A stretch of DNA of 64,000 nucleotides from an uncultured Elusimicrobia bacterium (GCA_964600165.1 CAZRIP010000003.1:4683-68682); one strand, 5' to 3'. Positions 24,164-43,183 are shown, counted from the first letter of the stretch. The notes: generated by a model not told the origin, from the sequence alone. Numbers and translations: made by a program.

Positions 24164-24192
<29 letters not shown>
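23344..24192 (-). CDS. folP: Dihydropteroate synthase
   Basis: GVVNVTSDSFFPGS...ILDVGGQSTRPG are the pterin-binding DHPS motifs. Confidence 0.9.
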
Positions 24193-25966
<1,774 letters not shown>

Positions 25967-30431: not shown

Positions 30432-30919
30432 ACGAGCACGATGAAGGCCAGCTGCTGTCGGCCTATCTCGACGGAGAGCTGTCCGCCGACGAGAACGCTC
30501 GCGTGAAGGTCCACCTCGACGGCTGCCCCGGCTGCCGCGTCGATCTCGAGGGCCTGCGCCACGCCAAGCACTTGCTCGCCGCCGCCCCGCGGCGCGCCAT
30601 GCCTCCCGAGCTCATCGCCGATTTGAACGAGCGCCTCGAGGCCCCGACCCTCGCCGACCGGTTGTTCGCCTGGCGCCGCTCGCCGCGCGTCATGGTCCCG
30701 GCGGGCGCGTTCGCGGCGCTCGCGCTGGCCGCCGCCTCTTGGTTCGTCTGGCAGAGCCGCGAGCCCGACCAATTCGTCCCGCTCGAGCCTCTTCTCGCCG
30801 CCCACTCCCGCTACGAAGCCGAGTCGCTCGTGCCGCAAGGAAGCCTCGTCGCGTCGAGCTACGCCTCGAATTTGACGGCCTTCTATGCGGATGGGCAGGA
30901 TCAAGACTCCGCTGAATAA
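30428..30919 (+). CDS. Transmembrane zinc-binding anti-sigma factor (HxxxCxxC 'ZAS' motif)
   Basis: LSAYLDGELSADENARVKVHLDGCPGCR is the HxxxCxxC zinc motif. One TM helix (AGAFAALALAAASWFVW) and a short C-terminal exo-domain. 4-nt overlap with the sigma gene. Confidence 0.7.
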   Translation: MNEHDEGQLLSAYLDGELSADENARVKVHLDGCPGCRVDLEGLRHAKHLLAAAPRRAMPPELIADLNERLEAPTLADRLFAWRRSPRVMVPAGAFAALALAAASWFVWQSREPDQFVPLEPLLAAHSRYEAESLVPQGSLVASSYASNLTAFYADGQDQDSAE

Positions 30920-31934
30920 GGCGCTCGCCGGCGCTCTGCTCGTCCTCGCGGCGACGCGCGGAGCGCGGGCCGAGGCGCCTCCGGACCCGCAGAAGCTCCT
31001 GTCCGCCGTCCTCGAGCCCTCCGCCGTGGCCTTCGAAGGGCGCATGATGGTCACGCATTGGTACGGAAAGCACCACAGCGAGGCGGAGGAAGTCCACGTC
31101 TACCATTTGCCGCCGAACCTGAGCCGGCGGGAGTTCACCGCGCCCGACGGCACGGTCACGAAGGTCGTCGTCAGCGACGGCGACCGCGAGGAAGTCCACC
31201 TCATCCGCCAGAAGAAGATCATCGAGGGCGACGCCGTCAAGTCGTTCGAGAAGCTCATGCCCGAGGACCGCGAGCTCGAGCTTTTGCTCAAGAACTACAA
31301 GCTCTCGGTGACGGGACCGGACCAGGTCGCCGGCCGCAAGGCCTGGGTCCTTCACATGGCGTCGGATCATCCCGGCAAGCCCTCGCAGGACTTCTGGGTC
31401 GATCAAGAGACGCACGCGATCCTCGAGAACCGCCGCTTTCTCCCGCACCGGCCCTTCGCCGCTTTGTCGCGCTACTCGCATTTCGAGACCAAGAAGACTC
31501 TCCCGGAAGATCTGTTCAAACTCGAGCTCTCGTCGAGCGCGATCCAGGGCAAGGGGCTCGAGCCCGATTTCATGAGCCTCGACGAGCTTTCCCAAACGAG
31601 CGGAAAGAAGGCGGCGTTCCCCGTGGCGCTCAACGACGGCTTCGTCTTCGAGAGCGCCGATTACTTGACGGTCGGCAAGCACACCGTCTTGCACGCGCGC
31701 TACACCGACGGGCTCGCCGTGATCTCGCTCTTTCAGACCGACCGTCCGGCGCGCAGCACGAGCAAGACGGACTCCCAGGTCGCCGCGCCGGCGTCCTCGG
31801 CCAAAGGCGCCGGGCAGCTGCGCCTGTCGGCCTCGGCGAAGGTCTTGAATTTCCGGCGCGGCCCGCGCTTTTACACGCTGATGGGCGACGTCTCGCGCGA
31901 GATGCTCCAAGAGATCGCCGCGCAAGTCAAGTAG
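30885..31934 (+). CDS. RseB/MucB-like anti-sigma-factor-binding periplasmic protein (LolA-like fold)
   Basis: Signal peptide. The N-terminal domain pattern FEGRMMVTHWYGK...EVHVYH...RREF.APDG fits RseB. Third gene of the sigma/anti-sigma cassette. Confidence 0.5.
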   Translation: MRMGRIKTPLNKALAGALLVLAATRGARAEAPPDPQKLLSAVLEPSAVAFEGRMMVTHWYGKHHSEAEEVHVYHLPPNLSRREFTAPDGTVTKVVVSDGDREEVHLIRQKKIIEGDAVKSFEKLMPEDRELELLLKNYKLSVTGPDQVAGRKAWVLHMASDHPGKPSQDFWVDQETHAILENRRFLPHRPFAALSRYSHFETKKTLPEDLFKLELSSSAIQGKGLEPDFMSLDELSQTSGKKAAFPVALNDGFVFESADYLTVGKHTVLHARYTDGLAVISLFQTDRPARSTSKTDSQVAAPASSAKGAGQLRLSASAKVLNFRRGPRFYTLMGDVSREMLQEIAAQVK

Positions 31935-32011
31935 CGGGTCCCCCACCGTCCACGCCGCTCTCCTTGAAAGCCCGCCGAGGGGCTGTTACACTTCCCGTGA
32001 TCGGCGCGGCC

Positions 32012-32649: not shown

Positions 32650-34014
32650 GTGCTCGACGCGCTGATCGTCCTCGCCTACCTCGCCTGCGTCGTGTTCCTC
32701 GGCTTATGGGCCGCGCGCCGCGGGCACGATGGCCTTTCCGACTTCGTGCTCGCGGGGCGGCGCCTGACGCTGCCGCTGTTTGTCGCCACGCTCGTGCCGA
32801 GCTTCTACGGCGGCGTGCTCGGCGTCGGCGAGTTCACGTGGGAAAACGGCCTTTCCAATTGGCTCGTGATGGGCCTGCCTTATTACGTCTTCGCCGCGGT
32901 CTACGCCGTCGCGCTCGCGGGCCGCGTGCGCGCCGCCGAGGGGCTGACGATCCCCGATCACTTCGAGCGCGCCTATGGCCCGCGATTGGCCGCCTGGTCC
33001 GGACTGCTCGTCTTCCTGCTGGCCAATCCCGCCGACGAGCTGCTGATGATCGGGCTGCTGCTTTCGCGCGCGATCGGCGTGCCCGTGGCCGCGGCCATGG
33101 CGCTCGCCGGCGCGGCTTCTTTCGCGCTGCTGCGGCGCGGCGGGCTGCGCTCGGACGTCTGGGCCAACGCGCTCCAGTTCGTCGTGATGTTCGCGGGCTT
33201 CGCCGTCATCTTGCCGGGGGCTCTCTCGCGCGCGGGCGGATTGGGAGGCTTGAGCGCCGCGCTGCCGGCCGGCCACCTGTCTCTGAGGGGCGGCATGAGC
33301 GGATGGCGGATATTGAGCTGGTGGCTGATCGCCGTCTGGACGCTCGTCGACCCGTCTTTCCACCAGCGCTGCGCGTCCGCCGAGAGCGGCGCGACCGCGC
33401 GCGCCGGCATCTTGTGGTCGATCGCGTTCTGGTTTCTCTTCGACGCGATGACGACGACGGCGGGGCTGTGCTCGCGCGCGCTGATGCCGGGGCTGCGCGC
33501 CCCGCTGCTCGCCTACCCGTCGCTCGCCGACGCCCTGCTTCCGGCGGGGCTGCGAGGCCTCTTCTACGCGGCCCTGGCTTCCTCGATCCTCGCGGCGCTC
33601 CAGACCAAGACGCTCCTCGCCGGCGTGAGCCTGGGCAAGGACGCCGCCGCGCGGATACTTTCTCTGGGCGAGCGCGCGCAGCAGTCGCTCGCGCGGTGGG
33701 CGCTGCTCGCCGCGCTGGCGCTCGGCTGGGCGCTGGCGCTCTGGATCCCGTCGGTCGTCGATCTCTGGTACGCGGTCGGCACGACGATCATCCCCGCGCT
33801 GCTGCTGCCGCTGCTGGGGACGTATTTCCCCCGCATGCGGGTCTCCGCGCGGTTCGCCGCGCTCTCGTCGGCCGCGGGTCTCGCCCTTTCGGGCGGCTTC
33901 TGGCTCGCGGGACGTTTCCTCGGCGCCCCGCCGTGGGGCATCGAGCCGATGTTTCCCGGCTTGGCCGCGTCGGCGCTCGTCTGGGCGGTCGGCTTAAGTC
34001 GGGCTTTGGCGTAG
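32650..34014 (+). CDS. Sodium:solute symporter (SSS) family transporter
   Basis: 454 aa with ~12-13 TM helices. SSS-like N-terminal region. GTG start. Confidence 0.65.
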   Translation: MLDALIVLAYLACVVFLGLWAARRGHDGLSDFVLAGRRLTLPLFVATLVPSFYGGVLGVGEFTWENGLSNWLVMGLPYYVFAAVYAVALAGRVRAAEGLTIPDHFERAYGPRLAAWSGLLVFLLANPADELLMIGLLLSRAIGVPVAAAMALAGAASFALLRRGGLRSDVWANALQFVVMFAGFAVILPGALSRAGGLGGLSAALPAGHLSLRGGMSGWRILSWWLIAVWTLVDPSFHQRCASAESGATARAGILWSIAFWFLFDAMTTTAGLCSRALMPGLRAPLLAYPSLADALLPAGLRGLFYAALASSILAALQTKTLLAGVSLGKDAAARILSLGERAQQSLARWALLAALALGWALALWIPSVVDLWYAVGTTIIPALLLPLLGTYFPRMRVSARFAALSSAAGLALSGGFWLAGRFLGAPPWGIEPMFPGLAASALVWAVGLSRALA

Positions 34015-34124
34015 GCCGCTCGTCCCTTCCTTTATAGGACTATTGCCGCTGACAATGGGTCCCAATCGGACCTGAGTCGCGCGGACGTCATGTTATAAGC
34101 TTCTTCAACGGGAGAATTATCAAT

Positions 34125-37100
34125 ATGACCAAGCCACGCATCTCGACCAAGATCATCTCCGCCTCGCTGTCGACGGCGCTCGCGTTCCTTTCCTTCGCGC
34201 TGCCCGCGGCCCCGGCGCTCGGCGCCGAGCTGACCGCGGCGCCGACCATGGGCCTTCCGGCCGGCGGTTGGACGCCCGTCGTGGCCGGCCTCGCGACGCC
34301 CGCGAACCTCTCCCGGTTCTCGGGCGTCACGATGCAAGGCGTCGACGTCGCCGATCTTCTGACGCAAATCGGGCGCGTGAACTTAGCCGCTCCAGGCCAA
34401 TTCATTCCCGCGCAGGCTCTCGAAAAGCTCGCCGGTCTGCCGAAGAACGCCTCCGAGCGCGAGGTCGTGACGGCGCTGGCGCTCGCCGCCGCGCAGACGC
34501 GCGCCGACGCGACCGACGCGCTCGCGCAGCTGCGCTCGGGGGTCAAGGCCTCCGAGCTTCCGGCGCTCGCGGCTCGGCTCAACCGCGCCGACCTCGCCTT
34601 TACCCTGCTGACCTCCGAACAGCGCGCCGCGATCCCCGCCGCGTCGGCCGCCGTCTCGCGCGAAGTCGCGCAGACGCGCGGCGCGAACGCCGACCGCCTC
34701 GTGAAGATCGGCGTGACCGGCTGGAATAAGACGACGGACGCGACGGAAGTCTCCGGCTCCGAATCAACGACGCTCTCCCGGCTGTCTCCAGCGTCCGCCC
34801 AAGGCGAGAAGCGGACCGCCAACGCCATCGAGTATTCCCGCACCGTCGTCACGACGACGAAGACGACGACCAAGCTCGGCTGGAAGCAGGCGCTGCGCTA
34901 CGGCGCGCTGATCGCCGCCTTGCCCGTCGCCGTCTTCGCGCTGCCGCAGATGAGCCCGGTCGCGCTGATCGTCGCCGTCGGCGTGATGGGCTCGGTGGTC
35001 GCGCACGAGTACGCGCACCTCTTCATGCTCCGCCGGCTGGGCGACGACACGTCGACCAAGCAGAACGTCTCGGCCAACCCCTTCAAGCTCGTCGACCCCG
35101 TCGGCACCGTCGCCGTGCCGGTCATCACCTCGGCGCTCTCCGCGGCGTTAGGCGTCCCGGCGCTCTTCGGCTGGGCCAAGCCCGTGCCGGTCGACTTCAA
35201 CAAACTCGCCGACCCGCAGAAGGACGCGATGAAGGTCGCTCTCGCCGGGCCGGTCATGAACGCCGCTCTCGGCGCCGTCGCCTTCGGCGCCCTCGCGCTC
35301 TTCCACCCGGCCGGGGCCGCCGCGGCGTCGCTCTTGGCGCTCGGCAAGATCAACCTCGTGCTCGCCGTCTTCAACATGCTGCCGTTCTCGCCGCAGATGG
35401 ACGGCTTCAAGGTCGCCATCGGGATGCTGTCGCGCGAGCAGTACGCGAAATGGACCGAGAACAAGAGGCTGCCTGAAGCCTACCGCTCCACGTTCAACAA
35501 GCTCTTCGAGGGGCCGTCCGCGATCCTCAACTGGGTCGGCATGGACAGCCAGGGGCACGTCAACTTCGCCACGCGGGCGATCACCTTCGCCGCGTTCGGC
35601 GTCGTGGCCATCGCCGCGCACGCCTTCATCGGCGCGCCGTTCATCATCATGGCGCTCGTCTGCAGCTACGACTACTACTGCATCCGCGAGAAGATCCAAA
35701 ACGAGGAGGCGGTCAAGAAGCTGATCCCGATCATGCAGGGGATCGGCTCGGCGATCGCGCGCGTCGCGGAGGAAGACGAGTCCATCCAGTCGCAGATCAA
35801 CACGGAAGAGATCGAGCACGCGATGAAGAACGTGTTCGAGGACGTCCTCGATAAAGTCGTCGACTCGACGGGCTTCTCGAGCCTTTCGGACGATGAGAAG
35901 TGGTCGCGCTTCGAGGAGGCTTATCTCGACGCCGCCGTCGACTCGCTCTCGCGCAAGGGCATGTCGAAAGACTCCAAGGAAAAGATCCGCGAGACGCTGC
36001 GCCACCAATACGTGCGGGAGTACATCGACAAGCTGCGCGGCTGGGTGGAGGAGAACGACGTCTGGCGCAAGTGGCACAGCCCGAACCGCAAGAAGAAGAG
36101 CGGCATCAGCGAAGCGGTCAAGAAGAAGGCCGGCTCCCTCGGCTCCTCGGGCATGGCCGTCGTCGCGCTCGCGCTCGTGGGCGGCTCGATCCTCGCGCCG
36201 CACGGCGTCGGCGCGGCGCTGAGCCTGGCCGGCGCGGGGCTGATGATGGGCACGATCTCGGCCAAGAAGCCCAAGCCTTTCAAAGAAGCCCTCGAGGATT
36301 TGCGGCTCTCCGACAAGGAGCTCGCCGCGATGATCATGCTCCTGAAAGACATGACGCTCGACAACAAGCCGCCGCTGTCGGGCCGCATCGACGAGCTCTC
36401 GCGCGCGTATTCCGGCGTGACCGGACCGCGCGGCATCAAGGAGTCGGTCGCGCTCGTCGGCAAGCCCGGCACGGGCAAGACCGCGATCGTCGAGAAGCTC
36501 GCGCAGTCGGCCGTGATGGGACAGAGCCACGAGGGGACGCTTTCCCTTAAGAAGATGGAAGGCCGCTACGTCATCGAGGTCAACTCGACGCGCCTCATGC
36601 GCCAGGAAGACCCGGCCGGCACGCTCGAAGCCGTCATCGACATCCTCAACAAGCTCAACGAAGAAGACCCTCGCGCGGGCAACAAGGTGATCCTGTTCCT
36701 CGACGAGGCGCACGTCCTCTTCGACGGCGAGAAGGGCAAGCACGTCGCCAACACGTTGAAAAAGCCGGTCCGCGACGGCGCCGTCTCCATCATCCTCGCC
36801 ACGACGCTCGACGAGTACAAGAAGTACGTCGAGCCCGACGAAGCCCTCAAACGCCGCTTCCCGGCGATCTTCGTCGACGAGTCGACGACCGAGGAGACGC
36901 TGCGCGCGCTGGAAAACGCGAGCGCGTGGTACGAGAAGCGCTTCGGCGTGAAGGTCGACCCTTCCGCGCTCAAGGCCGCCGCCGAGTTGGCGCCCAAGTT
37001 CAACCACGAGGAGTATCTGCCCGGCAGCGCGTTCACCTACTTCGAGAACGCGGTCAAGTGGGCCGACTTCGACCTGCGCCGCGACTTGGTCGCGCTGTCG

Positions 37101-40100
37101 ATCGCGGATAAGATCAGCGATCTCCAGTACGCGATGAAGAAGCTCAAGGAGAACCTCCAGAAGACCGACCGGGTCACGGAGAATCTCAAGAAAGACGAGC
37201 CGACGACCGTCGGGTACTACAATCTCGCGATCAAGCTCAGCCAAGAGCTCGTCGAACTCTACAAGGAGCAGGCCGCGATCCCGGCCGAGGGCAAGCCCGT
37301 CGTCGACGGCGAGCTCGTCGGCATGGCGATCTCGCGCGAGACCGGCATCAAGTCCGGCCAGCTCACGCTCGGCAGCGAGCCGATAGAGAAATACCTCAAG
37401 ATGGAAGAAGAGGTCGGCAAGAAGGTCATCGGCCAGCCGGACGCGATCGCCGCGATCGCGCGCTCGGTGCGCCAGAACAAGGCCGGCCTCTCCGATCCCA
37501 AGCGGCCGCTCGGCGTCTATTATCTGACCGGCCCGACGGGCTCGGGCAAGACGCACCTCGCCAAGGAGCTCGCCCGCTTCCTCTTCGATGATCCGGAAGC
37601 CGTCGTGCGCGTCGACATGTCGGAGTACATGGAGAGCCACTCGGTCTCGAAGTTCATCGGCTCGCCCCCCGGCTACGTGGGCTTCGAGTCCGGCGGCCAG
37701 CTGACGGAGGCCGTCCGCAAGAAGCCGTACTCGGTCGTGCTCTTCGACGAGATCGAGAAGGCGCACCCGCAGGTCTGGCTGATGATGCTCCAGATCCTGG
37801 GCGAAGGGCGCCTGACCGACGGCCAGGGCAAGACGACGAGCTTCAAGAACACGATCATCCTCATGACGTCGAACCTCGGCATGCACGCCGTCGACGTCGA
37901 GCCTTACGTGAAGGCTTTCGAGGAGCTGCGCGCCAAGGAGCGGGCCGCCGCGGGCGACCGTATCGCCCTGCGCGAGCTCGAGCAGGAGAAATTAGAGCTC
38001 GCCGAGCGGCTCTCCGCGGAGACCAAGGCCGCGACGTCGGTGATCACGGCCCAGGCTTTCAAGGAGACTTACCCGCCGGAGTTCGAGGGCCGCTTATCGG
38101 CGCCTCCGATCGTCTTCAACCGCATCACGCCGGCGATGGCGCTGCAGATCGCGGAGTTGAATCTCAAGGAGCTGCGCGGCGTGCTCGGCTACGCCGGCCA
38201 CGAGTTCGCCTGGACGCCCGGCGTCGTCAAGAAGGTCGTCGACGAGGGCTTCTCGGTGCGGCTGGGCGCGCGCCCGCTGCAAAACGCCATCGACCGCCTG
38301 ATCACGCAGAACATCGCCACGGAGATCCTCCACACGGCGATGCGGAACGGCGGCAAAGTCGAGCCCTCGCGCATCGAGGCCGTGCTCGGCGAGGACGGCG
38401 AGGTCAAGCTCAACATCAAGTCGCTGCCTCCGAAGCAGGTCAAGAAGGGCGAGGCCCAGGGCGCGGCCAAGGAGCTCTTCACGACGGTGCTCGAGCAGAC
38501 GCTGACGGCGGCGGCCGACACCGCCGTGCCGGCGCCGACGCTCCAGATCATCGACGAGTGGGTCAAGGCCGCGCTCGCCGCCAACCCCGAGCAAACCTCG
38601 GTCGCTGACGCGGCTCAGCCCGAGACGGCGCAGCCTGCCGCTCCCGCGGACGAGGAGCAAGTCGCGCGCCCCGCGCCCGTCCAGGCTCCCGTCAGGCCCG
38701 GACTCCTGACGCTTGACGCGGCTTCGCCGCTCTCGGCGCAGGCGCGCAGCGTGGCCGCCGCCAACAACGACCCCGAGCTCAAGGACCCGGGCGTCCGACA
38801 GGCCGCCGCCGCGATCAAGGAAGCCATGGCCGGCTATCCCGAAGCCGCGCGCGAGGCCGTCCTGCGCACGATCGAAGATCAGAACGACCCCTACGTCGGC
38901 TGGCTCAAGATCTTCGTAGAGCAAGCCAAGCGCAACGGCGGAGGCAATCCGACCATCAAGTACGAGGTCAACGACGAAACGGCCCGCGTCGCCGTAGCTC
39001 GCACCGGCGCGCTGTCGAGCCGCGAGAAGGACTTGCTGACCCGGCACTTCACCGGCCTCGCGCCGTTGGACGCCTCGCAGGCGCGCACCCGCGTCGAGAC
39101 CTGGAACGTCCAGGACAGCGGCTCGGGCATGCGGCTGATGCTCGACCTCCATCGCATCCTCGCGAAGATCCCCGGCGCCAAGCTCGGCGTCGAGGTGGCG
39201 GGCGGCGGCGTCGAGTACTGGATCGAGATCCCGAAGCCCCAGACGCCCGCGGCGCCCGCGGCCGAACCGACTCCTCCGACCTCGGCGGAAGCGGCGCCTC
39301 CGGCGACGCAGCCGGCGGCCCCGCGCCCGCTCGTGGCGGCGGCCGAGGGCGCTCCCCAGTTCAACGAGGCGGGGAACGCCACGCCGCTCGCGGTGGCTAA
39401 GCGCGGGCTCTCGGACGATTCCATCAAGACCCACGCGACCCGCATCCGGAACGCGATGGCAGAGAAATCGTACGGCGGCGAGGCCAAAGGCGCCGCGGTG
39501 CTCTTTCTCGCTCGGGCCGCGGACTTCATGAAGTCCAACGCCGCCACAGGCGAAGGCGTCACCCTGATGTGGAGCGTCGACGAAAACGGCGCGCAGGTCC
39601 TGATCCACCGCGCGGGCCATCCTCTCAACGACGCCGAGATCGCGCGTCTCAACATCCTCATCGACAGCAGCACGGAGCTGAAGGCAAAGCTCGAAGCTGC
39701 GGGGGGTCGAGTGTTTTATGGCTCGGAAGAATTCTCGCAAGGGGGCAACGGCGCCTCCGTGTGGATCCAGCTCCCTCATCAAGCGCCGGCCGGCCAGGCC
39801 GACGGCAGCGCGGCGACGCCGCTCTCTTCCACGCAGGAAGGGACCGACGTCGCCGCGCTGCTGGCCAAGATCCACACGCCCTCGGAAGCCGGCAGCGATC
39901 CGCGGATCATGTGGGTCGCCTTCAGCGGAAGCGAAGAGGACGCGCTCGGGCAGCTCGAGGCGCGCGGCTTCGAGGTCCCGCTCGTGCGCCACGAGGACGG
40001 CTTCAAGCGCGCCCGGCTCATCGCTCCGACGGCCCAGGCCGCGGCGCGCGCCGCGCTGATGCTCGCCGTGAACCCGGATGTCCGGGAGATCGACCTGCAT

Positions 40101-42410
40101 CCCCAGGCGCGCTCGCTCATACGCGCCACGCCGGCGGCCGACATGTCTCACGCGCCCGAGGGCTTCACCTCCGTCGAGATCGACCGGGTTTCCCCGAACG
40201 CCGAGGACGCGGAGCTCGGCAACGCGAAGAATTCGATCCGGCGCGCCGCGCCTGAAGGCGACGCCCGCCGGCAGGCCGCGCTCGCCCGATTCGTGGACGA
40301 GACGGCGCGTAAAGCCAAGGAGTCCTCGCGCCCGGGCGACAAGATCTTCGTCGAATGGAAGGCGACGCCCGACGAGCTGCAGGTCTCGGTGCGCGTGCAA
40401 GGCGCCGCGGTCAACGCTCTCGAGTGGACCGGCTGGGCCGCGGGCTCCGTCTTCGCCGCCGAGCTCGCCGAGATGAACGGGATGGTGCACGTGGAGGGCG
40501 GCGCGGGCGGCGGACGCTTCACGCTTTCGCTGCCGGCTCCGCGCGCGGTCTCCGGGACCCGCCCGGGCTCCGGCGCGCCCGCGATGCGCGCGACGACCCA
40601 ATTCAAGGAGCAGCTCGTCACGCTGATGCGCGAGCTGATCCGCCAAAGAGAGCAGCGCGGCCTGGCGCTGCGCTACACGGCGGCGGAGATCGTCGCCGAA
40701 GCGTCGTCGCGCTCCGACATGGACTGGACGGCCGATTGGCTGCGCTTCGCCAGCGACCCCGAGGTCACCTCGGTCAATGAGGACAACGGCCCTCAAGTCG
40801 CCGCCGCCGGCATGGTCATCTCCAAGCACGGCAGCCGCTCGCAGGACGAGCGGCGCCTGATCGCCGCGATGAAGAAATTCCAATCGAGCGACAGCTGGGA
40901 CCATGCCCGTCCCGCGCGCACGCGCCTGATCCGTTCGCTCGCCAAGCTGCTGACGCCCGGAAACGACCGCCAGCTCGAGGAGCTCATCGCGCGCTACGAC
41001 CGCCAGAAGCAGCCGAACCTCCCGGCCTCCGAGAAGCTCCACGCCGACGTCGTGCTGGCGATCCAGACCGCGCTGCTGCGCAACGCCGGGCGCGACCAGT
41101 TCGACAAGCTCGTCACGCGCGACTGGAACAAGCGCCTTTTCGCCGAGACCTACGACTACGTCAAGCGCGTCAACCCCGATTATCTGCGCCGCGTCTACGA
41201 CGACTGGAAGGCCGGCAACACGCTCGACGGAGCGCGCCGCATGATGGCTCTCTGGGCCATCGCCGATTACGGCGACCGCGGCGACATGGCGACGCTCATG
41301 GCCTCCGTGCGCGAGGACCGCTGGATGGGCTCGTCGGTCAACCTCGAGGAGAAGAACTTCTTCGGCGAGGCGCTCGGCCGCATGGCGCAGCGCCTCGGCT
41401 ACGACGACGCCCTCAAGCACGACGCGCGGCTTTGGATGCGCGAGGGCATGGGCACCGGGGGCAGCTACCTGCGCATGGTGACGGCGGTCCAGATCGCCGG
41501 CGCGGTCGGCGACGCCGAGGACATGCCGTACTTGGAGCGGATCTTCCGCGTGAACCCGTCCGGCGGCGTCTCCTTCGAGCACGAGATGACGCAGATGGAA
41601 TCGACGGTCGCCTGGGGCAAGATCGCGCAGCGCGAGGGCTTGGTTCCCGAGTATTGGGGCACGCGCCAGGACCCGAGCGACCCCAATTCATTGCCGCTGC
41701 TGCAGGCCTGGCTCTCGGACACGAACTCCGGCGTCAACATGGCCGCCGCCCAAGCTCTCCTCGAGTTCGTCAAGCACGGCTCGCCCGCCCGCCCCGCCGC
41801 GGCCGCGGCGCGCCCGGCGCCACCCGTGGCCGACCACCCGTTCTTGCGCACCGGCGCGCCGTCGATGCCCGGCGGCGACTTGCGCACGTTCACCGAGACG
41901 CCGTCCGACGCGACCCTGCCCTACGCACGGTTGAGCGACGGCAATAAGGAGTTCGCCCGTCTTTGGCTCGACGCATTCGGCAGCATCGCGAGCGCCATTT
42001 TCGGCTTGGACTTCTCACGCCAGCTGCGCATGTCGCAGAACGCCTCGGCCGGCGCCGCCACGTTCGTGCTGTCTCAAGCCGGTGGGAGCGCGATCGAGGC
42101 CGCCCGCTTCGCCGAGTTCCGCCAGCTCGTGCTGCTTTTGCTCAACATCGCGCGCGACCCGCAGGACGTCCGCGCGCGCAAATGGACGGAACTCTCCGCG
42201 CGCTTCGTCGAGGTCCACACGGCTTACACGGTGCTCAACGGGCTGGTGAACCAAGCCGGCGTCTCGATGGGCGTCAATCATGACGCCTCGCTCCCGGGCG
42301 AGCCCGCGCGCGCCGAGATCTGGCTCAAGTTCGACGTCAGCGGCCGCCCGACGCCGCCCCGGCCGTCTAACCCGAGCTTGCGCGACGACGGCGACGACCT
42401 CCCGTTTTGA
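34125..42410 (+). CDS. Giant 2,761-aa multidomain membrane protein: signal peptide, M50/site-2-protease-like domain, ClpB-like double AAA+ module, three GHKL-like repeats, C-terminal alpha-helical repeats
   Basis: One uninterrupted ORF. GGGAGA SD lies 9 nt upstream of the ATG. M50 motifs: HEYAH (35004-35018) and NMLPFSPQMDG (35373-35405). NBD1: Walker A GKPGTGKT (36458-36481), Walker B ILFLDEAH, then ATTLDEYKKYVEPDEALKRRF. NBD2: GPTGSGKT (37530-37553), VVLFDEIEKAHPQVW, MTSNLG, sensor-2 GARPLQNAIDR. Three repeats ending GGGVEYWIEIP, GGNGASVWIQLP and GGAGGGRFTLSLP. Confidence 0.85.
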   Translation: MTKPRISTKIISASLSTALAFLSFALPAAPALGAELTAAPTMGLPAGGWTPVVAGLATPANLSRFSGVTMQGVDVADLLTQIGRVNLAAPGQFIPAQALEKLAGLPKNASEREVVTALALAAAQTRADATDALAQLRSGVKASELPALAARLNRADLAFTLLTSEQRAAIPAASAAVSREVAQTRGANADRLVKIGVTGWNKTTDATEVSGSESTTLSRLSPASAQGEKRTANAIEYSRTVVTTTKTTTKLGWKQALRYGALIAALPVAVFALPQMSPVALIVAVGVMGSVVAHEYAHLFMLRRLGDDTSTKQNVSANPFKLVDPVGTVAVPVITSALSAALGVPALFGWAKPVPVDFNKLADPQKDAMKVALAGPVMNAALGAVAFGALALFHPAGAAAASLLALGKINLVLAVFNMLPFSPQMDGFKVAIGMLSREQYAKWTENKRLPEAYRSTFNKLFEGPSAILNWVGMDSQGHVNFATRAITFAAFGVVAIAAHAFIGAPFIIMALVCSYDYYCIREKIQNEEAVKKLIPIMQGIGSAIARVAEEDESIQSQINTEEIEHAMKNVFEDVLDKVVDSTGFSSLSDDEKWSRFEEAYLDAAVDSLSRKGMSKDSKEKIRETLRHQYVREYIDKLRGWVEENDVWRKWHSPNRKKKSGISEAVKKKAGSLGSSGMAVVALALVGGSILAPHGVGAALSLAGAGLMMGTISAKKPKPFKEALEDLRLSDKELAAMIMLLKDMTLDNKPPLSGRIDELSRAYSGVTGPRGIKESVALVGKPGTGKTAIVEKLAQSAVMGQSHEGTLSLKKMEGRYVIEVNSTRLMRQEDPAGTLEAVIDILNKLNEEDPRAGNKVILFLDEAHVLFDGEKGKHVANTLKKPVRDGAVSIILATTLDEYKKYVEPDEALKRRFPAIFVDESTTEETLRALENASAWYEKRFGVKVDPSALKAAAELAPKFNHEEYLPGSAFTYFENAVKWADFDLRRDLVALSIADKISDLQYAMKKLKENLQKTDRVTENLKKDEPTTVGYYNLAIKLSQELVELYKEQAAIPAEGKPVVDGELVGMAISRETGIKSGQLTLGSEPIEKYLKMEEEVGKKVIGQPDAIAAIARSVRQNKAGLSDPKRPLGVYYLTGPTGSGKTHLAKELARFLFDDPEAVVRVDMSEYMESHSVSKFIGSPPGYVGFESGGQLTEAVRKKPYSVVLFDEIEKAHPQVWLMMLQILGEGRLTDGQGKTTSFKNTIILMTSNLGMHAVDVEPYVKAFEELRAKERAAAGDRIALRELEQEKLELAERLSAETKAATSVITAQAFKETYPPEFEGRLSAPPIVFNRITPAMALQIAELNLKELRGVLGYAGHEFAWTPGVVKKVVDEGFSVRLGARPLQNAIDRLITQNIATEILHTAMRNGGKVEPSRIEAVLGEDGEVKLNIKSLPPKQVKKGEAQGAAKELFTTVLEQTLTAAADTAVPAPTLQIIDEWVKAALAANPEQTSVADAAQPETAQPAAPADEEQVARPAPVQAPVRPGLLTLDAASPLSAQARSVAAANNDPELKDPGVRQAAAAIKEAMAGYPEAAREAVLRTIEDQNDPYVGWLKIFVEQAKRNGGGNPTIKYEVNDETARVAVARTGALSSREKDLLTRHFTGLAPLDASQARTRVETWNVQDSGSGMRLMLDLHRILAKIPGAKLGVEVAGGGVEYWIEIPKPQTPAAPAAEPTPPTSAEAAPPATQPAAPRPLVAAAEGAPQFNEAGNATPLAVAKRGLSDDSIKTHATRIRNAMAEKSYGGEAKGAAVLFLARAADFMKSNAATGEGVTLMWSVDENGAQVLIHRAGHPLNDAEIARLNILIDSSTELKAKLEAAGGRVFYGSEEFSQGGNGASVWIQLPHQAPAGQADGSAATPLSSTQEGTDVAALLAKIHTPSEAGSDPRIMWVAFSGSEEDALGQLEARGFEVPLVRHEDGFKRARLIAPTAQAAARAALMLAVNPDVREIDLHPQARSLIRATPAADMSHAPEGFTSVEIDRVSPNAEDAELGNAKNSIRRAAPEGDARRQAALARFVDETARKAKESSRPGDKIFVEWKATPDELQVSVRVQGAAVNALEWTGWAAGSVFAAELAEMNGMVHVEGGAGGGRFTLSLPAPRAVSGTRPGSGAPAMRATTQFKEQLVTLMRELIRQREQRGLALRYTAAEIVAEASSRSDMDWTADWLRFASDPEVTSVNEDNGPQVAAAGMVISKHGSRSQDERRLIAAMKKFQSSDSWDHARPARTRLIRSLAKLLTPGNDRQLEELIARYDRQKQPNLPASEKLHADVVLAIQTALLRNAGRDQFDKLVTRDWNKRLFAETYDYVKRVNPDYLRRVYDDWKAGNTLDGARRMMALWAIADYGDRGDMATLMASVREDRWMGSSVNLEEKNFFGEALGRMAQRLGYDDALKHDARLWMREGMGTGGSYLRMVTAVQIAGAVGDAEDMPYLERIFRVNPSGGVSFEHEMTQMESTVAWGKIAQREGLVPEYWGTRQDPSDPNSLPLLQAWLSDTNSGVNMAAAQALLEFVKHGSPARPAAAAARPAPPVADHPFLRTGAPSMPGGDLRTFTETPSDATLPYARLSDGNKEFARLWLDAFGSIASAIFGLDFSRQLRMSQNASAGAATFVLSQAGGSAIEAARFAEFRQLVLLLLNIARDPQDVRARKWTELSARFVEVHTAYTVLNGLVNQAGVSMGVNHDASLPGEPARAEIWLKFDVSGRPTPPRPSNPSLRDDGDDLPF

Positions 42411-43183
42411 CGCCGCTCGCCGAATTCGGACCCTATAAGCTCGCTGGCCTTGCCGCCCTGATCTTCTTTGGCGGCGTCGTCGACGCCCTGGCGGGCGGCG
42501 GCGGCCTAGTGACGATCCCCGCCTACCTCGCCTTCGGCCTCGATCCTCGGTTCCTGCTCGGGACCAACAAACTCAGTTCCTGCATCGGCACGGCGGCCGC
42601 CTCGCTCAACTATCAAAGGAACCAGCGCCTCGACTTGGCGGCGATGGCGCCCGGCTTCGCGGCGGCGCTGCTCGGGGCGGTCCTGGGAGCGACGGCGGCG
42701 AAGTCCCTCGGCGCGAGCGGCATCCGGATCCTCGTGCTCGTCGCGCTGCCGCTCGTCGGCTGGTTCATCTACTCGAAGCACGGGTTCGGGCGGGAGGACC
42801 GCAGCGCCTCGCTCGGCGGCGCGCTCAAGAGGCGCGAAACGGCCCTCGCGCTGCCGATCGGGGTTTACGACGGCTTTTTCGGTCCCGGGACAGGGCTTTT
42901 CTTCGCGCTAGCCCAGGTGCGCTGGTGCCGCCGCGACTTGCTCGGCGCGACCGTGCGCGCGAAGTTCTTGAATCTCACGACCAATCTCGCCGCCCTCGCC
43001 ACTTTTCTGCTCGCCGGTCGCGTCGACATCCCGCTCGGACTGCTGATGGCCGCGGCGAGCGTCGCGGGAAACTGGACAGGTTCGCATCTGGGCCTCAAGA
43101 ACGGCCCAAAGGCGATCCGCCCCGCCGTCCTTCTCGTCTGTTTCGGCCTTTTCGCGAAACTTTTGCTCGACTATCTGAAGTAA
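42407..43183 (+). CDS. Sulfite exporter TauE/SafE-family membrane protein (DUF81)
   Basis: GGVVDALAGGGGLVTIPAYL is the TauE signature. The TTG start overlaps the giant gene's stop (TTGA). Confidence 0.75.
   Translation: MTPLAEFGPYKLAGLAALIFFGGVVDALAGGGGLVTIPAYLAFGLDPRFLLGTNKLSSCIGTAAASLNYQRNQRLDLAAMAPGFAAALLGAVLGATAAKSLGASGIRILVLVALPLVGWFIYSKHGFGREDRSASLGGALKRRETALALPIGVYDGFFGPGTGLFFALAQVRWCRRDLLGATVRAKFLNLTTNLAALATFLLAGRVDIPLGLLMAAASVAGNWTGSHLGLKNGPKAIRPAVLLVCFGLFAKLLLDYLK

What the first reader, a model, noticed from the sequence alone, without database searches (positions are those of the whole stretch)
34125..42410. 8.3-kb single gene fusing an M50 intramembrane protease, a ClpB-like AAA+ unfoldase, three GHKL-like repeats and an alpha-solenoid
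The frame from 34125 to 42410 is one uninterrupted ORF of 2,761 codons with a good SD (GGGAGA) 9 nt upstream. Its domain order is as follows:
- Residues 1-34: signal peptide.
- Next ~220 aa: Ala-rich exo-domain.
- ~250-520: polytopic M50 domain.
- ~675-713: another TM segment.
- ~745-1410: complete Hsp100 double AAA+ module.
- ~1560-2140: three tandem ~150-aa repeats.
- ~2160-2761: alpha-helical-repeat tail.

I know of no described protein that joins an S2P-like protease and a Clp/Hsp100 unfoldase in one polypeptide. FtsH (AAA plus M41) is the nearest conceptual analogue. This could be a self-contained membrane proteolysis/unfolding machine.
Basis: partly seen in the sequence, partly recalled or inferred. 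Interest (0 to 1): 0.9.

Follow-up and report, generated by a model that had tools for sequence, protein, structure and literature searches.

The report
Fused intramembrane protease–Clp unfoldase giant protein
This real 2,761-codon gene, conserved in about 26 Elusimicrobia species, joins a membrane-embedded site-2 (M50) protease to a ClpB/ClpC-type ATP-driven unfoldase in one protein, a combination I found no description of, and it probably extracts and cuts membrane proteins.

Summary
The ORF (34125-42410, +) is real and is not an assembly artefact. One uninterrupted gene with the same domain order occurs in about 26 Elusimicrobia/Elusimicrobiota species representatives. Its 3' half was assembled independently in four other samples. 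One metagenome contig carries a natural split form: an M50+linker gene overlapping a Clp-half gene by 4 nt.

Domain order:
- Signal-peptide-like N-terminus and a helical N-domain.
- S2P/M50 core. HExxH, GPxxN and NxxPxPxLDG are kept in essentially all members (one divergent member and the split-form gene vary at the third).
- A family-specific cytoplasmic linker domain (CxYDYxC, ExEHxxKN motifs).
- A Gly/Ala-rich TM hairpin.
- Hsp100 D1-D2 with no Clp N-domain, no D1 pore-loop tyrosine and no ClpP loop. The D2 pore loop is intact.
- A probable HEAT-like tail.

Function is inferred. The most likely model is a hexameric, FtsH-like or ERAD-like machine that couples intramembrane cleavage to ATP-driven extraction. 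Stress regulators sit next to the gene: a σE/RseA/RseB-like module in subtype A and an HspR-like repressor in subtype B.

I rate it a new variant of known kinds, interest about 0.7.

The parts
34109..34114 (+). Shine-Dalgarno-like GGGAGA, 9 nt before the ATG
   Evidence: Read directly from the sequence.
34125..42410 (+). Giant gene, 2,761 codons plus stop
   Evidence: ORF list and translation. The exact protein is in NCBI on a 78-kb contig, unnamed.
34125..34226 (+). Residues 1-34: signal-peptide-like N-terminus (K/R n-region, hydrophobic core, ...PALGA)
   Evidence: Hydropathy. The family-wide motif LSPGxxxYxALAA is seen in the alignment. Not verified with a dedicated predictor.
34257..34745 (+). 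Residues 45-207: all-helical N-domain ('exo-domain'). Its side of the membrane is unresolved.
   Evidence: AF2 pLDDT 90-96. No Pfam hit. No convincing PDB fold match. Only 11-31% identity to relatives.
34881..35684 (+). Residues 253-520: polytopic S2P/M50 domain. It comprises the HExxH helix 278-304, a re-entrant region around 320-350, the GPxxN helix 364-393, the LDG helix 398-427 and two further TM helices 476-520.
   Evidence: Pfam PF02163 35.5 bits. Alignment with 35 stand-alone S2Ps. Foldseek hits to mjS2P 3b4r (prob 1.0) and SpoIVFB 8vjl (prob 0.97).
35004..35018 (+). HEYAH (residues 294-298), zinc-binding and catalytic motif
   Evidence: Invariant H294, E295, H298 across 40 aligned sequences and in all 37 family sequences.
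35373..35405 (+). NMLPFSPQMDG (residues 417-427), the NxxPxPxLDG motif with the third zinc ligand Asp426. The window copy has a one-residue insertion.
   Evidence: N417, P420, D426 and G427 are invariant.
35661..35681 (+). CSYDYYC (residues 513-519), family-specific motif where the last M50 TM helix meets the cytoplasm
   Evidence: Found in 34 of the 37 family sequences scanned, with the two Cys fixed; not matched in the divergent P0130 and in P0136; replaced by C-NSMRER in the M50-less P0154.
35685..36128 (+). Residues 521-668: family-specific helical linker domain with the invariant ExEHxxKN motif (562-569)
   Evidence: AF2 pLDDT 93-98. No Pfam family reaches threshold. No PDB fold match. 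Found only in this family.
36129..36263 (+). Residues 669-713: Gly/Ala/Pro-rich hydrophobic hairpin (two short TM helices)
   Evidence: Hydropathy. K/R-rich flanks and a K/R-free turn. Weakly hydrophobic in three subtype-B members.
36357..37169 (+). Residues 745-1015: AAA+ D1 with lid. Walker A is GKPGTGKT at 779-786 and Walker B is ILFLDE at 856-861. It has no aromatic pore loop.
   Evidence: Pfam AAA and AAA_lid_9. The alignment to ClpB 1qvr places 'lmrqedpaGtle' opposite 'lvagakyrGefe'. No KYRG motif in any member.
37170..37496 (+). Residues 1016-1124: short coiled-coil middle region (about 80 aa between the D1 lid and D2, ClpC-like length) and the start of D2
   Evidence: PDB alignments: ClpB aligns in separate pieces, ClpC in one stretch.
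37497..38369 (+). Residues 1125-1415: AAA+ D2 plus D2-small. Walker A is GPTGSGKT at 1136-1143, Walker B is VVLFDE, and the pore loop is GSPPGYVGF at 1179-1187. A helical insert of about 55 aa sits where ClpA/ClpC carry the ClpP loop.
   Evidence: Pfam AAA_2 181 bits and ClpB_D2-small. PDB alignment. Motif census.
38769..39236 (+). Residues 1549-1704: R1, a degenerate GHKL (Bergerat) fold domain, found in every family member whose sequence extends past D2
39414..39776 (+). Residues 1764-1884: R2, second degenerate GHKL-fold domain (subtype A only)
   Evidence: AF2 pLDDT 85-93. hhalign against R1 gives prob 97%.
39834..40151 (+). Residues 1904-2009: ferredoxin-like b-a-b-b-a-b domain. The same unit is repeated 2-8 times between the TM hairpin and D1 in subtype-B proteins.
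40194..40535 (+). Residues 2024-2137: R3, third degenerate GHKL-fold domain
   Evidence: Pfam HATPase_c E 0.006, 17.4 bits, below the 26.4 cut-off. AF2 model. No N-box, G1 or G2 motif at the expected positions.
40557..42407 (+). Residues 2145-2761: tail, probably HEAT-like helical repeats, ending in a conserved PSNPx[FL] peptide and an acidic/aromatic C-terminus
   Evidence: HEAT_2 is sub-threshold here and in P0001 and P0003. C-terminal peptides compared. No structure was predicted for this part.
42407..43183 (+). TauE/SafE-family membrane transporter gene, overlapping the giant gene by 4 nt
   Evidence: Pfam TauE 133 bits. The same arrangement occurs in L001, L003, L006 and L083-L086.
29850..31934 (+). 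Upstream sigmaE-type module on the same strand: ECF sigma (29850-30431), single-pass zf-HC2 anti-sigma (30428-30919) and a MucB/RseB-like protein (30885-31934). A functional link to the giant gene is not shown.
   Evidence: Pfam. Syntenic in L001 and L006 only.
32650..34014 (+). Sodium:solute symporter gene directly upstream, same strand, 110-nt gap
   Evidence: Pfam SSF. Syntenic in L001 and L006.

Best explanation
The gene encodes a membrane-embedded two-enzyme machine found only in a lineage of Elusimicrobiota.

**Shown**
- An S2P/M50 intramembrane metalloprotease core with all catalytic motifs.
- It is linked, through a family-specific cytoplasmic helical domain and a Gly/Ala-rich TM hairpin, to a type-II Hsp100 unfoldase (D1-D2) that must lie in the cytoplasm.
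- The unfoldase is followed by degenerate GHKL-fold domains, a ferredoxin-like domain and a probable HEAT-like tail.

**Inferred**
- The AAA+ module forms a hexamer directly under the membrane. Its entry (D1) face points at the bilayer, because D1 starts about 40-60 residues after the last TM helix. This places up to six M50 domains around the entry.
- A membrane-protein substrate is cut within its TM segment by M50 at the cytoplasmic leaflet.
- The D2 ring is the only ring with an aromatic pore loop. It pulls the cytoplasm-facing fragment out of the membrane, or off a partner, and unfolds it. Alternatively it pulls first and so feeds an unwound TM segment to the protease.
- D1 serves mainly for nucleotide-dependent assembly, as in p97.
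- The C-terminal non-catalytic domains at the D2 exit bind substrates, adaptors or regulators.

**Likely role.** The likely physiological role is stress-linked membrane-protein quality control or regulated intramembrane proteolysis. This collapses the two-step 'S2P then Clp' logic of the sigmaE pathway, or the 'rhomboid plus FtsH/p97' logic of ERAD-like systems, into one polypeptide.
For: **Architecture**
- Domain assignments.
- 26 Elusimicrobia species representatives match the full M50+linker module; every locus with enough DNA carries one ORF of 2,398-3,042 aa in the order M50-linker-(insert)-D1-M-D2-R1.
- Among 1.84 billion representative proteins, only 37 reach E<=1e-30, and the top ~25 are this family.

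**Both enzymes appear active**
- HExxH and GPxxN, both Walker A motifs and the D2 pore-loop Tyr are present in every member with enough sequence; NxxPxPxLDG in all but one divergent member.

**Functional coupling**
- A natural split form has the M50+linker gene overlapping the Clp-half gene by 4 nt.

**Geometry and topology**
- The TM hairpin is followed almost at once by D1 in subtype A.
- K/R-rich loops flank the linker and the AAA+ module, and the opposite turns are K/R-free.

**No downstream peptidase partner**
- There is no [LIV]-G-[FL] ClpP loop.

**Stress context**
- A sigmaE/RseA/RseB-like module lies upstream in three subtype-A loci.
- An HspR-like MerR gene lies directly upstream in 13 subtype-B loci.

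**Precedents**
- DegS, then RseP, then ClpXP (PMC10202637).
- Rhomboid YqgP working with FtsH (PMC7231995).
Against: - No experimental or expression data exist. No substrate is known.
- No partner gene is conserved across both subtypes, so context says little about substrates.
- Hexamer formation, the placement of M50 relative to the pore and the direction of threading are extrapolated from ClpB, ClpA and p97.
- The D1 pore loop lacks an aromatic residue, so engagement at the membrane face may be weak.
- M50-less relatives exist (P0154; P0150 has the protease as a separate gene). The anchored unfoldase can therefore work without a covalently attached protease.
- The topology of the first 275 residues is unresolved.
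- The Pfam M50 score is only just above threshold, and the Foldseek E-value for the S2P match is weak (0.02), although its probability is 1.0.
Confidence: 0.5

Rival explanations
1. The protein is a dedicated executor of the neighbouring sigmaE-type switch. The M50 domain carries out site-2 cleavage of the adjacent single-pass zf-HC2 anti-sigma factor. The Clp module then strips or unfolds the released anti-sigma fragment to free the ECF sigma factor, replacing RseP plus ClpXP. The SpoIIAB/RsbW-like GHKL-fold domains bind the sigma factor or the anti-sigma fragment.
For: - ECF sigma, a zf-HC2 anti-sigma with one TM helix (about residues 88-107) and a MucB/RseB-like gene lie upstream on the same strand in the window, L001 and L006. 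In L006 all six genes are tightly packed.
- Anti-sigma factors are the classical S2P substrates, and ClpXP finishes the job in E. coli (PMC10202637).
- The closest structural relatives of R1-R3 are anti-sigma factors that bind sigma factors.
Against: - The module is absent from subtype-A locus L004 and from all subtype-B loci, which have a different conserved neighbourhood.
- In L001, opposite-strand genes intervene.
- The loci that share the module are close relatives, so the synteny may be inherited by descent, not kept for function.
- SpoIIAB/RsbW-type proteins bind group-3 sigma factors, not ECF sigma factors.
- A 2,761-aa protein conserved across about 26 species is more machinery than one anti-sigma factor should need.
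Confidence: 0.2
2. The protein is a membrane-tethered precursor. On a signal, the M50 domain cuts its own Gly/Ala/Pro-rich TM hairpin (residues 669-713) in cis or in trans within an oligomer. This releases a soluble Clp-GHKL-HEAT protein into the cytoplasm, by analogy with S2P release of membrane-tethered transcription factors.
For: - The hairpin is rich in helix-destabilising Gly, Pro and Ser, which is what S2P substrates need, and the AF2 model gives it low confidence.
- It lies exactly between the protease and unfoldase halves.
- The natural split form breaks at this same junction.
Against: - The hairpin is only weakly hydrophobic in some members (P0003, L022, L027), so it is not a conserved substrate element.
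- In subtype B, hundreds of residues of ferredoxin-like repeats separate the hairpin from D1.
- Nothing suggests that a released soluble form would have a defined function different from an ordinary ClpB.
- No test is possible with these tools.
Confidence: 0.1
3. The protein is a membrane-anchored ClpB-like disaggregase. Its M50 part serves only as a polytopic anchor or substrate-binding pseudoprotease, and no proteolysis takes place.
For: - M50-less relatives keep the anchor, linker and Clp module (P0154).
- YqgP shows that an intramembrane protease can act as a non-catalytic adaptor for an AAA+ machine (PMC7231995).
- The window's own LDG motif is atypical (MDGF, with a one-residue insertion).
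Against: - All three zinc ligands, the catalytic Glu and the GPxxN and NxxP helper motifs are kept in essentially all of 37 family sequences, and H294, E295, H298 and D426 are invariant across 40 aligned S2Ps, despite only 40% overall identity. Pseudoproteases normally lose these.
Confidence: 0.1
4. The long ORF is an artefact: an assembly chimera, or a read-through of separate genes.
For: - The sequence comes from a metagenome-assembled, high-GC genome, where long spurious ORFs are common. Examples are antisense ORFs of 912 and 1,162 aa inside this gene.
- Two related loci show broken ORFs.
Against: - The same single ORF occurs in more than 15 independent assemblies from different studies.
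- The 3' 1,709 codons plus the overlapping TauE gene recur in other samples.
- Every part of the frame is homologous to known domains or to family members.
- GC content is uniform.
- The broken loci hop between frames inside domains, which is typical of indel errors.
Confidence: 0.01

Closest known systems
FtsH (membrane-anchored AAA+ / M41 zinc protease)
   Same: One polypeptide combines a membrane anchor, an AAA+ unfoldase and a zinc metalloprotease. It is probably hexameric, sits under the membrane, and acts on membrane proteins.
   Different: - FtsH has a single AAA module, and its soluble M41 protease sits after the ATPase, at the exit side.
- Here the protease is an intramembrane M50 placed before a double-ring Hsp100, at the entry side.
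- There is no M41 domain.
- A canonical FtsH is encoded separately in the window (24164-25966).
RseP (S2P) followed by ClpXP in the E. coli sigmaE pathway
   Same: Both enzyme classes are present and in the same order of action: intramembrane cleavage, then an ATP-dependent Clp unfoldase acting on the released fragment (PMC10202637). A sigmaE/RseA/RseB-like module lies nearby in subtype A.
   Different: - In E. coli these are separate proteins. RseP has PDZ domains, and ClpX is a single-ring ATPase that feeds ClpP.
- Here the two are covalently fused.
- There is no PDZ domain.
- The unfoldase is a double ring without a ClpP-docking loop.
Rhomboid YqgP with FtsH in B. subtilis; RHBDL4 or Derlins with p97/Cdc48 in ERAD
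   Same: An intramembrane protease (or pseudoprotease) works physically together with an AAA+ machine to remove membrane proteins (PMC7231995; the RHBDL4/Derlin-p97 part is from my own knowledge). As in p97, only the second ring has aromatic pore loops.
   Different: - Those systems use rhomboid-fold serine proteases and non-covalent recruitment.
- This one uses an S2P metalloprotease fused in cis to an Hsp100-type ATPase, not a Cdc48-type one.
ClpB / ClpC (class I Hsp100)
   Same: D1, AAA_lid_9, a coiled-coil middle region, D2 and D2-small are all present. The protein scores 353 bits to T. thermophilus ClpB and 338 bits to ClpC. The Walker motifs and the D2 pore loop are canonical.
   Different: - There is no Clp_N domain; the membrane module takes its place.
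- The D1 pore-loop Tyr is absent.
- The M-domain is about 80 aa.
- D2 carries an extra helical insert of about 55 aa.
- There is a C-terminal extension of about 1,350 aa.
- The NCBIfam ClpB score is 428 against a cut-off of 1,232.
Stand-alone ~225-aa 'site-2 protease family proteins' (S2P groups without accessory domains)
   Same: These are the closest sequence relatives of the M50 core (about 45% identity, 1,466 hits at E<=1e-10). They share the GWAKPVPV, AGPxxN and FNxLPxPPLDGG signatures.
   Different: - Those proteins consist of the core only, and according to the review they are uncharacterised.
- Here the core is embedded in a 2,761-aa protein with two extra TM helices, the linker domain and the unfoldase.
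SpoIIAB / RsbW / UsfX anti-sigma factors (small GHKL proteins)
   Different: - Sequence identity is 9-15%.
- The N-box, G1 and G2 nucleotide-binding motifs are missing.
- Pfam HATPase_c is below threshold.
- The domains are embedded as repeats in a giant protein.
- No sigma-factor binding has been shown.

Membership tests
Peptidase M50 / site-2 protease (S2P) | HExxH zinc-binding motif within a TM helix | tested here: met
   HEYAH at 294-298 lies in helix 278-304. It is invariant in 40 aligned sequences and in 37 family members.
Peptidase M50 / site-2 protease (S2P) | Second motif NxxPxxxLDG, with the Asp as third zinc ligand, in a later TM helix | tested here: met
   NMLPFSPQMDG at 417-427. 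N417, P420, D426 and G427 are invariant. The window copy has a one-residue insertion and M in place of L.
Peptidase M50 / site-2 protease (S2P) | Pfam PF02163 above the gathering score | tested here: met
   29.3 bits in the whole protein and 35.5 bits for the region alone, against a cut-off of 27.2. The margin is small.
Peptidase M50 / site-2 protease (S2P) | S2P core fold | tested here: met
   The best Foldseek PDB hits are mjS2P 3b4r (prob 1.00, E 0.02) and SpoIVFB 8vjl (prob 0.97).
Peptidase M50 / site-2 protease (S2P) | Intramembrane proteolytic activity | not testable with these tools
   This needs biochemistry with E295Q or H294A controls.
S2P group I (RseP type) / group III (SpoIVFB type) | PDZ domain(s) (group I) or a CBS domain (group III) | tested here: not met
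   No PDZ or CBS hit in Pfam scans of the whole protein or its pieces. The group definitions come from PMC10202637. The core resembles the accessory-domain-free groups.
Hsp100/Clp class I (ClpA/B/C type) | Two AAA+ modules with Walker A and B, a D1 lid and the D2-small domain | tested here: met
   Pfam AAA, AAA_lid_9, AAA_2 (181 bits) and ClpB_D2-small. Walker motifs were located. PDB phmmer gives E 2e-104 to ClpB.
Hsp100/Clp class I (ClpA/B/C type) | N-terminal Clp_N (Clp repeat) domain | tested here: not met
   No Clp_N hit. The PDB alignments start at ClpB residue ~170. D1 is preceded by the TM hairpin.
Hsp100/Clp class I (ClpA/B/C type) | Aromatic pore loops in both rings (D1 KYRG, D2 GYVG) | tested here: not met
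   D2 has GSPPGYVGF. D1 has MRQEDPAGT where ClpB has AGAKYRGEF. No family member has KYRG.
ClpB (equivalog) | NCBIfam TIGR03346 cut-off and a full-length M-domain (~120-130 aa) | tested here: not met
   428 bits against a cut-off of 1,232. About 80 aa lie between the D1 lid and D2.
ClpA / ClpC / ClpX (ClpP partners) | [LIV]-G-[FL] ClpP-docking loop in the last AAA module | tested here: not met
   The corresponding position reads PYVKAF and is followed by a helical insert of about 55 aa. No consistent tripeptide occurs across the family.
GHKL ATPases/kinases | Bergerat alpha/beta fold | tested here: met
GHKL ATPases/kinases | N-box Asn, G1 (DxGxG) and G2 nucleotide-binding motifs; Pfam HATPase_c threshold | tested here: not met
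   No motif at the expected positions in R1-R3. HATPase_c appears only on R3, at 17.4 bits against a cut-off of 26.4. R1 has no Pfam hit at all.
HEAT / alpha-solenoid repeats | Repeated helical hairpins recognised by HEAT/ARM profiles or by structure | tested here: inconclusive
   HEAT_2 gives E 3e-4 (21.3 bits, cut-off 27.7) in the window, and 7e-5 and 2e-4 in P0003 and P0001. No structure was predicted for the tail.
FtsH | Peptidase M41 domain after a single AAA module | tested here: not met
   The giant protein has no M41 hit. The true FtsH is at 24164-25966 on the minus strand.
Anti-phage defence systems (PADLOC) | A specific match to a defence-protein model beyond a generic P-loop | tested here: not met
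   Only the D2 P-loop region (1132-1254) matches PDC-M37B, DolB and mad8 models. The neighbourhood is made of housekeeping genes.

The most novel reading that the evidence does not exclude
The protein is a bacterial, single-polypeptide counterpart of the ERAD-type pairing of an intramembrane protease with a double-ring AAA+ dislocase. ATP-driven pulling by the Clp ring feeds TM segments into the S2P active site. Membrane proteins could then be cleaved and extracted without a prior site-1 cut, which would be a previously undescribed mode of S2P substrate licensing. The degenerate anti-sigma-like GHKL domains and the HEAT tail would act as built-in adaptors.
Probability: 0.3. Interest if true: 0.85.

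Novelty: new variant of a known kind. Interest (0 to 1): 0.72.

Why it matters
**Two usually separate steps in one chain.** S2P proteases and Clp/Hsp100 unfoldases normally act one after the other as separate proteins, as in RseP then ClpXP. How intramembrane proteases hand fragments to cytoplasmic AAA+ machines, and how TM helices get unwound for cleavage, are open mechanistic questions. A natural covalent fusion, together with a natural split form, gives direct genomic evidence that these two activities work as one unit.

**A tractable object for structure work.** The fusion is a single chain with fixed stoichiometry, which suits cryo-EM and biochemical study of coupled intramembrane proteolysis and extraction.

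**A function lead for uncharacterised S2Ps.** It assigns a likely working context to a branch of the accessory-domain-free S2P groups, which are uncharacterised.

**Annotation gap.** Current database names for family members ('AAA family ATPase', 'ClpC') miss the protease entirely.

**Two unmatched domains.** The linker domain with its CxYDYxC and ExEHxxKN motifs, and the R1 domain, have no detectable relatives outside the family.

Tried and rejected
**Searches that found nothing**
- Self-BLAST of the C-terminal half found no repeats. Profile and fold methods were needed.
- Pfam scans of residues 1-250, the linker and R1 gave nothing above threshold.
- Foldseek gave only generic helical-bundle matches (ferritin, GPCRs) for the N-domain and the linker. 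I treat these as chance.
- Six literature searches found no description of an S2P-AAA+ fusion.

**Searches limited by the tools**
- The word-indexed homologue search with the whole protein was swamped by Clp proteins and returned only four relatives.
- With the M50+linker profile it returned only stand-alone S2Ps.
- With R1 it returned only fragments.
- The window's own protein is hidden behind a 104-aa cluster representative.
- The look-up of encoding contigs does not hold the window's giant gene or P0154.

**Readings considered and rejected**
- PADLOC hits are generic P-loop matches, so I rejected a defence-system reading.
- I looked for a gene neighbour conserved across both subtypes and found none.
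- I looked by eye, not systematically, for an HspR HAIR-type operator (CTTGAGT-N7-ACTCAAG) in the subtype-B upstream regions and saw none. A different conserved block is present.
- I considered L008 and L019 as true split genes. I rejected this because the frame changes occur inside domains.
- ORF 31058-32635 (525 aa, Arg-rich, overlapping the RseB-like gene) has no Pfam hit, and I regard it as spurious.

**Left open**
- I tried to settle the topology from hydropathy, the positive-inside rule and the S2P fold. The result is a parity conflict, and it remains open.

Full report

Yes. The + strand holds one open frame from the ATG at 34125 to the stop ending at 42410, 2,761 codons. A GGGAGA lies 9 nt upstream. 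GC content is uniform at 0.64-0.71 across the gene and its neighbours. The antisense ORFs of 912 and 1,162 aa inside the gene are the usual by-product of high GC.

Pfam, NCBIfam and PDB sequence searches place recognisable domains along the whole frame. The exact protein is already deposited in NCBI on a 78-kb contig, without a name.

**2. Is the fusion genuine?**

- *Close relatives.* A word-indexed search with the whole protein found four relatives of 1,795-2,961 aa. All carry M50 plus the Clp domains.
- *Species representatives.* I scanned one genome per species (GTDB) with an alignment of the family-specific M50+linker region. The full module turned up only in MAGs labelled Elusimicrobia or Elusimicrobiota, plus one unclassified 'bacterium', about 26 species in all. 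Other phyla matched only the first ~160-180 residues, which is a stand-alone S2P.
- *Domain order.* Every locus with enough DNA has a single ORF of 2,398-3,042 aa with the order M50, linker, variable insert, D1, middle region, D2, R1.
- *Apparent exceptions.* L008 and L019, both long-read-style assemblies, keep the same order but hop between frames even inside the AAA+ domains. This indicates indel errors or decay, not separate genes.
- *Independent assemblies.* Four other samples carry the identical downstream TauE gene overlapped by the 3' end of the giant gene. One has 1,709 codons of the giant gene up to its contig edge.
- *Exhaustive search.* An HMMER pass over 1.84 billion representative proteins with residues 280-1015 found only 37 proteins at E<=1e-30. 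The top ~25 are this family or fragments of it. No fusion from another lineage appeared.

**3. A natural split form**

On contig L087 a 656-aa gene encodes the family-type N-terminus, the M50 core (HETAH, GPAAN, ...NDGG), the CSYDYWC motif and the linker domain. It is 39% identical to window residues 278-658 (E 3e-78) and stops where the fused proteins enter their second TM hairpin.

It overlaps by 4 nt the start of P0150 (2,580 aa). P0150 has its own family-type N-terminus, a hydrophobic pair, ferredoxin-like repeats and Clp D1-D2, but no M50.

Fused and split forms of the same two halves are classical evidence that the halves work together. A second relative, P0154, keeps the linker and the Clp module but has lost M50.

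**4. Anatomy of the window protein** (residue numbers)

- *1-34:* signal-peptide-like segment. Its motif (LSPGxxxYxALAA in relatives) is shared across the family.
- *45-207:* a confidently predicted all-helical domain (pLDDT 90-96) with no Pfam or PDB match.
- *208-251:* a Thr/Ser-rich, low-confidence linker.
- *253-520:* the S2P domain.
  - Its core aligns with the abundant ~225-aa 'site-2 protease family proteins' at about 45% identity.
  - H294, E295, H298, the GWAKPVPV block, G375-P376-N379, N417, P420, D426 and G427 are invariant.
  - The best structural matches are M. jannaschii S2P and SpoIVFB.
  - It has no PDZ or CBS domain, so it belongs with the accessory-domain-free, uncharacterised S2P groups.
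- *513-519 (CSYDYYC) and 521-668:* a helical domain predicted at pLDDT 93-98, with the ExEHxxKN motif. This is specific to the family.
- *669-713:* a Gly/Ala/Pro-rich hydrophobic hairpin.
- *745-1415:* a type-II Hsp100 module, scoring 353 bits to ClpB and 338 bits to ClpC.
  - Both Walker A and B motifs, the Arg-finger region and the D2 pore loop GSPPGYVGF are intact.
  - It has no Clp_N domain.
  - 'MRQEDPAGT' stands in place of the D1 pore loop 'AGAKYRGEF'.
  - The middle region is about 80 aa.
  - There is no ClpP-docking tripeptide. A helical insert of about 55 aa sits at that position.
- *1416-1548:* an Ala/Pro-rich spacer.
- *R1 (1549-1704), R2 (1764-1884), R3 (2024-2137):*
  - They share an a2-b2-a2-b2 layout in the AF2 model (pLDDT 75 overall, 80-93 in the domains).
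  - They are homologous at profile level (hhalign 97%, E 6e-11).
  - The N-box, G1 and G2 nucleotide-binding motifs are missing, so these are probably binding modules, not ATPases.
  - R1 is found in every member that extends past D2 but has no relatives outside the family.
- *2145-2761:* the tail gives consistent but sub-threshold HEAT_2 hits in three members. It ends in a short PSNPx[FL] peptide that recurs in both subtypes.

**5. Two subtypes**

- *Subtype A* (window, P0001, P0002, L004, L006) has D1 about 40-60 residues after the hairpin and a long C-terminal extension (R2, ferredoxin-like domain, R3).
- *Subtype B* (the rest) inserts 300-1,000 residues of ferredoxin-like repeats between the hairpin and D1 and has a shorter C-terminus.

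**6. Topology**

The AAA+ module needs ATP, so it must be cytoplasmic. The S2P fold fixes the HExxH helix (278-304) and the LDG helix as running from outside to inside. Loops rich in K/R (299-366, 424-478, 519-672, 711-745) alternate with K/R-free turns (274-279, 394-399, 499-503, 688-696), which fits this picture. The hairpin 669-713 is weakly hydrophobic in three subtype-B members. That is tolerable only for an element that crosses the membrane an even number of times.

One point stays unresolved. If helix 253-275 spans the membrane, residues 35-250 are cytoplasmic and the signal-peptide-like N-terminus is unexplained. A K/R cluster before the helix and a K/R-free turn after it favour this reading. 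If the signal peptide is real, that helix cannot span. I could not settle this with the tools available.

**7. Genomic context**

The gene sits among housekeeping genes. Further away in the window are infC-rpmI-rplT-pheST downstream, glmS, glmM, glmU, tldD and a canonical ftsH.

- *Subtype A.* The same-strand order is ECF sigma, single-pass zf-HC2 anti-sigma, MucB/RseB-like protein (23.7 bits, cut-off 22.3), SSF symporter, giant gene, TauE with a 4-nt overlap. It is seen in the window, L001 and L006, tightly packed in L006.
- *Subtype B.* The neighbourhood is different but also conserved: MgtE upstream and a thioredoxin/TPR gene downstream, both on the opposite strand. In 13 loci an 89-aa MerR-family gene lies directly upstream on the same strand. 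It is 59-93% identical between loci (76-93% in 12 of the 13). Its best NCBIfam match is the heat-shock repressor HspR (E 1.5e-19, 69.8 bits, below the 105-bit cut-off).
- *Both subtypes.* Paired TRGGCCY boxes about 21 nt apart lie upstream of the gene.
- No partner gene is shared by both subtypes. The common theme is proximity to stress regulators.

**8. How it most likely works**

*Shown:* two apparently active enzymes, with catalytic motifs conserved in all members, are joined in a fixed order in a membrane protein. Split and fused forms both exist.

*Inferred:*
- The Hsp100 part forms a hexamer under the membrane, with its D1 entry face towards the bilayer.
- The M50 domains surround the entry and cut TM segments at the cytoplasmic leaflet.
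- The D2 ring is the only one with an aromatic pore loop, a p97-like division of labour (my own knowledge). It pulls and unfolds the cytoplasm-facing product, or pulls first and so unwinds the TM helix for cleavage.
- With no ClpP loop, the output is unfolding or extraction, not processive degradation.
- The C-terminal non-catalytic domains at the D2 exit probably bind substrates, adaptors or regulators.

*Precedents for the logic:* DegS, then RseP, then ClpXP (PMC10202637), and rhomboid YqgP working with FtsH, described as a primordial ERAD (PMC7231995).

I put about 0.95 on the architecture and about 0.45-0.5 on this mechanism.

**9. Rivals**

- A dedicated executor of the adjacent sigmaE-type switch (0.2). 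This is attractive because of the synteny and the SpoIIAB-like fold, but the synteny is limited to three closely related loci.
- A self-cleaving membrane-tethered precursor (0.1).
- An anchored disaggregase with a non-catalytic M50 (0.1). The conserved catalytic residues argue against it.
- An artefact (0.01).

**10. Novelty**

Every module is of a known kind. An AAA+ unfoldase working with a membrane protease also has precedents. However, I found no described protein or family that fuses an S2P to an Hsp100. Existing database names ('AAA family ATPase', 'ClpC') overlook the protease. I therefore rate it a new variant of a known kind, confined to one poorly studied phylum. It also contains two domains, the linker and R1, with no detectable relatives elsewhere.

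Noticed in passing
L002:9415-9684 and the equivalent positions in L007-L009, L015, L016, L018, L019, L021-L023, L025, L027: An 89-aa MerR-family gene, 59-93% identical between loci (76-93% in 12 of the 13), lies directly upstream of the subtype-B giant genes on the same strand. Its best NCBIfam match is the heat-shock repressor HspR (E 1.5e-19, below the cut-off), and its best PDB matches are GlnR/TnrA. The window contains no such gene.
   Followed up: partly
L002:9267-9422 and equivalents: A 51-codon ORF (MPMIAKDLMPWMFVKRTATWTPYVKIR...) precedes the HspR-like gene. Its first ~35 codons are about 90% conserved. It has its own SD and a strong TTGACA-17-TATATA promoter. It could be a small protein or a conserved leader.
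   Followed up: no
window:33990-34070; L002:9770-9860 and equivalents: Paired TRGGCCY boxes about 21 nt apart lie upstream of the giant gene in both subtypes. In subtype B they are followed by CTATTGAT-N4-ATCAA and TATAAT, and in subtype A by TATAGGA. This looks like a dedicated operator for an unknown regulator. The window's first box is degenerate.
   Followed up: partly
window:29850-31934: A sigmaE/RseA/RseB-like module on the same strand as the giant gene: ECF sigma, a single-pass zf-HC2 anti-sigma and a MucB/RseB-like exported protein. It is syntenic in L001 and L006 only.
   Followed up: partly
window:42407-43183: A TauE/SafE-family transporter gene overlaps the giant gene's stop by 4 nt, suggesting translational coupling. 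This is conserved in all subtype-A loci that have downstream DNA and in four independent assemblies. Its functional relation to the giant gene is unknown.
   Followed up: partly
L087:3096-12805: A natural split form. A 656-aa gene (signal-peptide-like N-terminus, M50, linker) overlaps by 4 nt a 2,580-aa Clp-half gene (P0150) that has its own family-type N-terminus. P0154 is a further relative that has the linker and Clp module but no M50.
   Followed up: yes
window:34881-34949 (residues 253-275) and 34125-34226 (residues 1-34): A topology parity conflict. The signal-peptide-like N-terminus and a membrane-spanning helix 253-275 cannot both be real, given the fixed orientation of the S2P HExxH helix and a cytoplasmic AAA+ module.
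   Followed up: partly
window:42350-42407 (C-terminal residues); C-termini of P0003, L021, L022, L027: A short PSNP[RS][FL] peptide followed by an acidic/aromatic tail recurs near the extreme C-terminus in both subtypes, although the tails are otherwise divergent. It may be a docking motif.
   Followed up: no
L002:7780-9138 and equivalents in 10 subtype-B loci: MgtE is the conserved divergent upstream neighbour of the HspR-like/giant gene pair. This is curious because MgtE is the known substrate of the B. subtilis rhomboid YqgP/FtsH pair (PMC7231995). It may be coincidence or inherited synteny.
   Followed up: no
window:24164-25966 (-): A canonical FtsH (FtsH_ext, AAA, Peptidase_M41) is encoded 8 kb upstream. 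The giant protein is therefore additional to the standard membrane AAA protease, not a replacement. This exact FtsH sequence is not in the protein collection.
   Followed up: no
window:31058-32635 (+); 35148-37886 (-); 38094-41582 (-): These are long ORFs that are probably not genes. One is an Arg-rich 525-aa frame overlapping the RseB-like gene. The other two are antisense frames of 912 and 1,162 aa inside the giant gene. All are typical of ~68% GC DNA.
   Followed up: partly
protein collection (cluster of P0277): The window's 2,761-aa protein is clustered under a 104-aa fragment as its representative (P0146). Searches that return representatives therefore cannot retrieve it. This probably explains why the family looks smaller than it is in such searches.
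   Followed up: no
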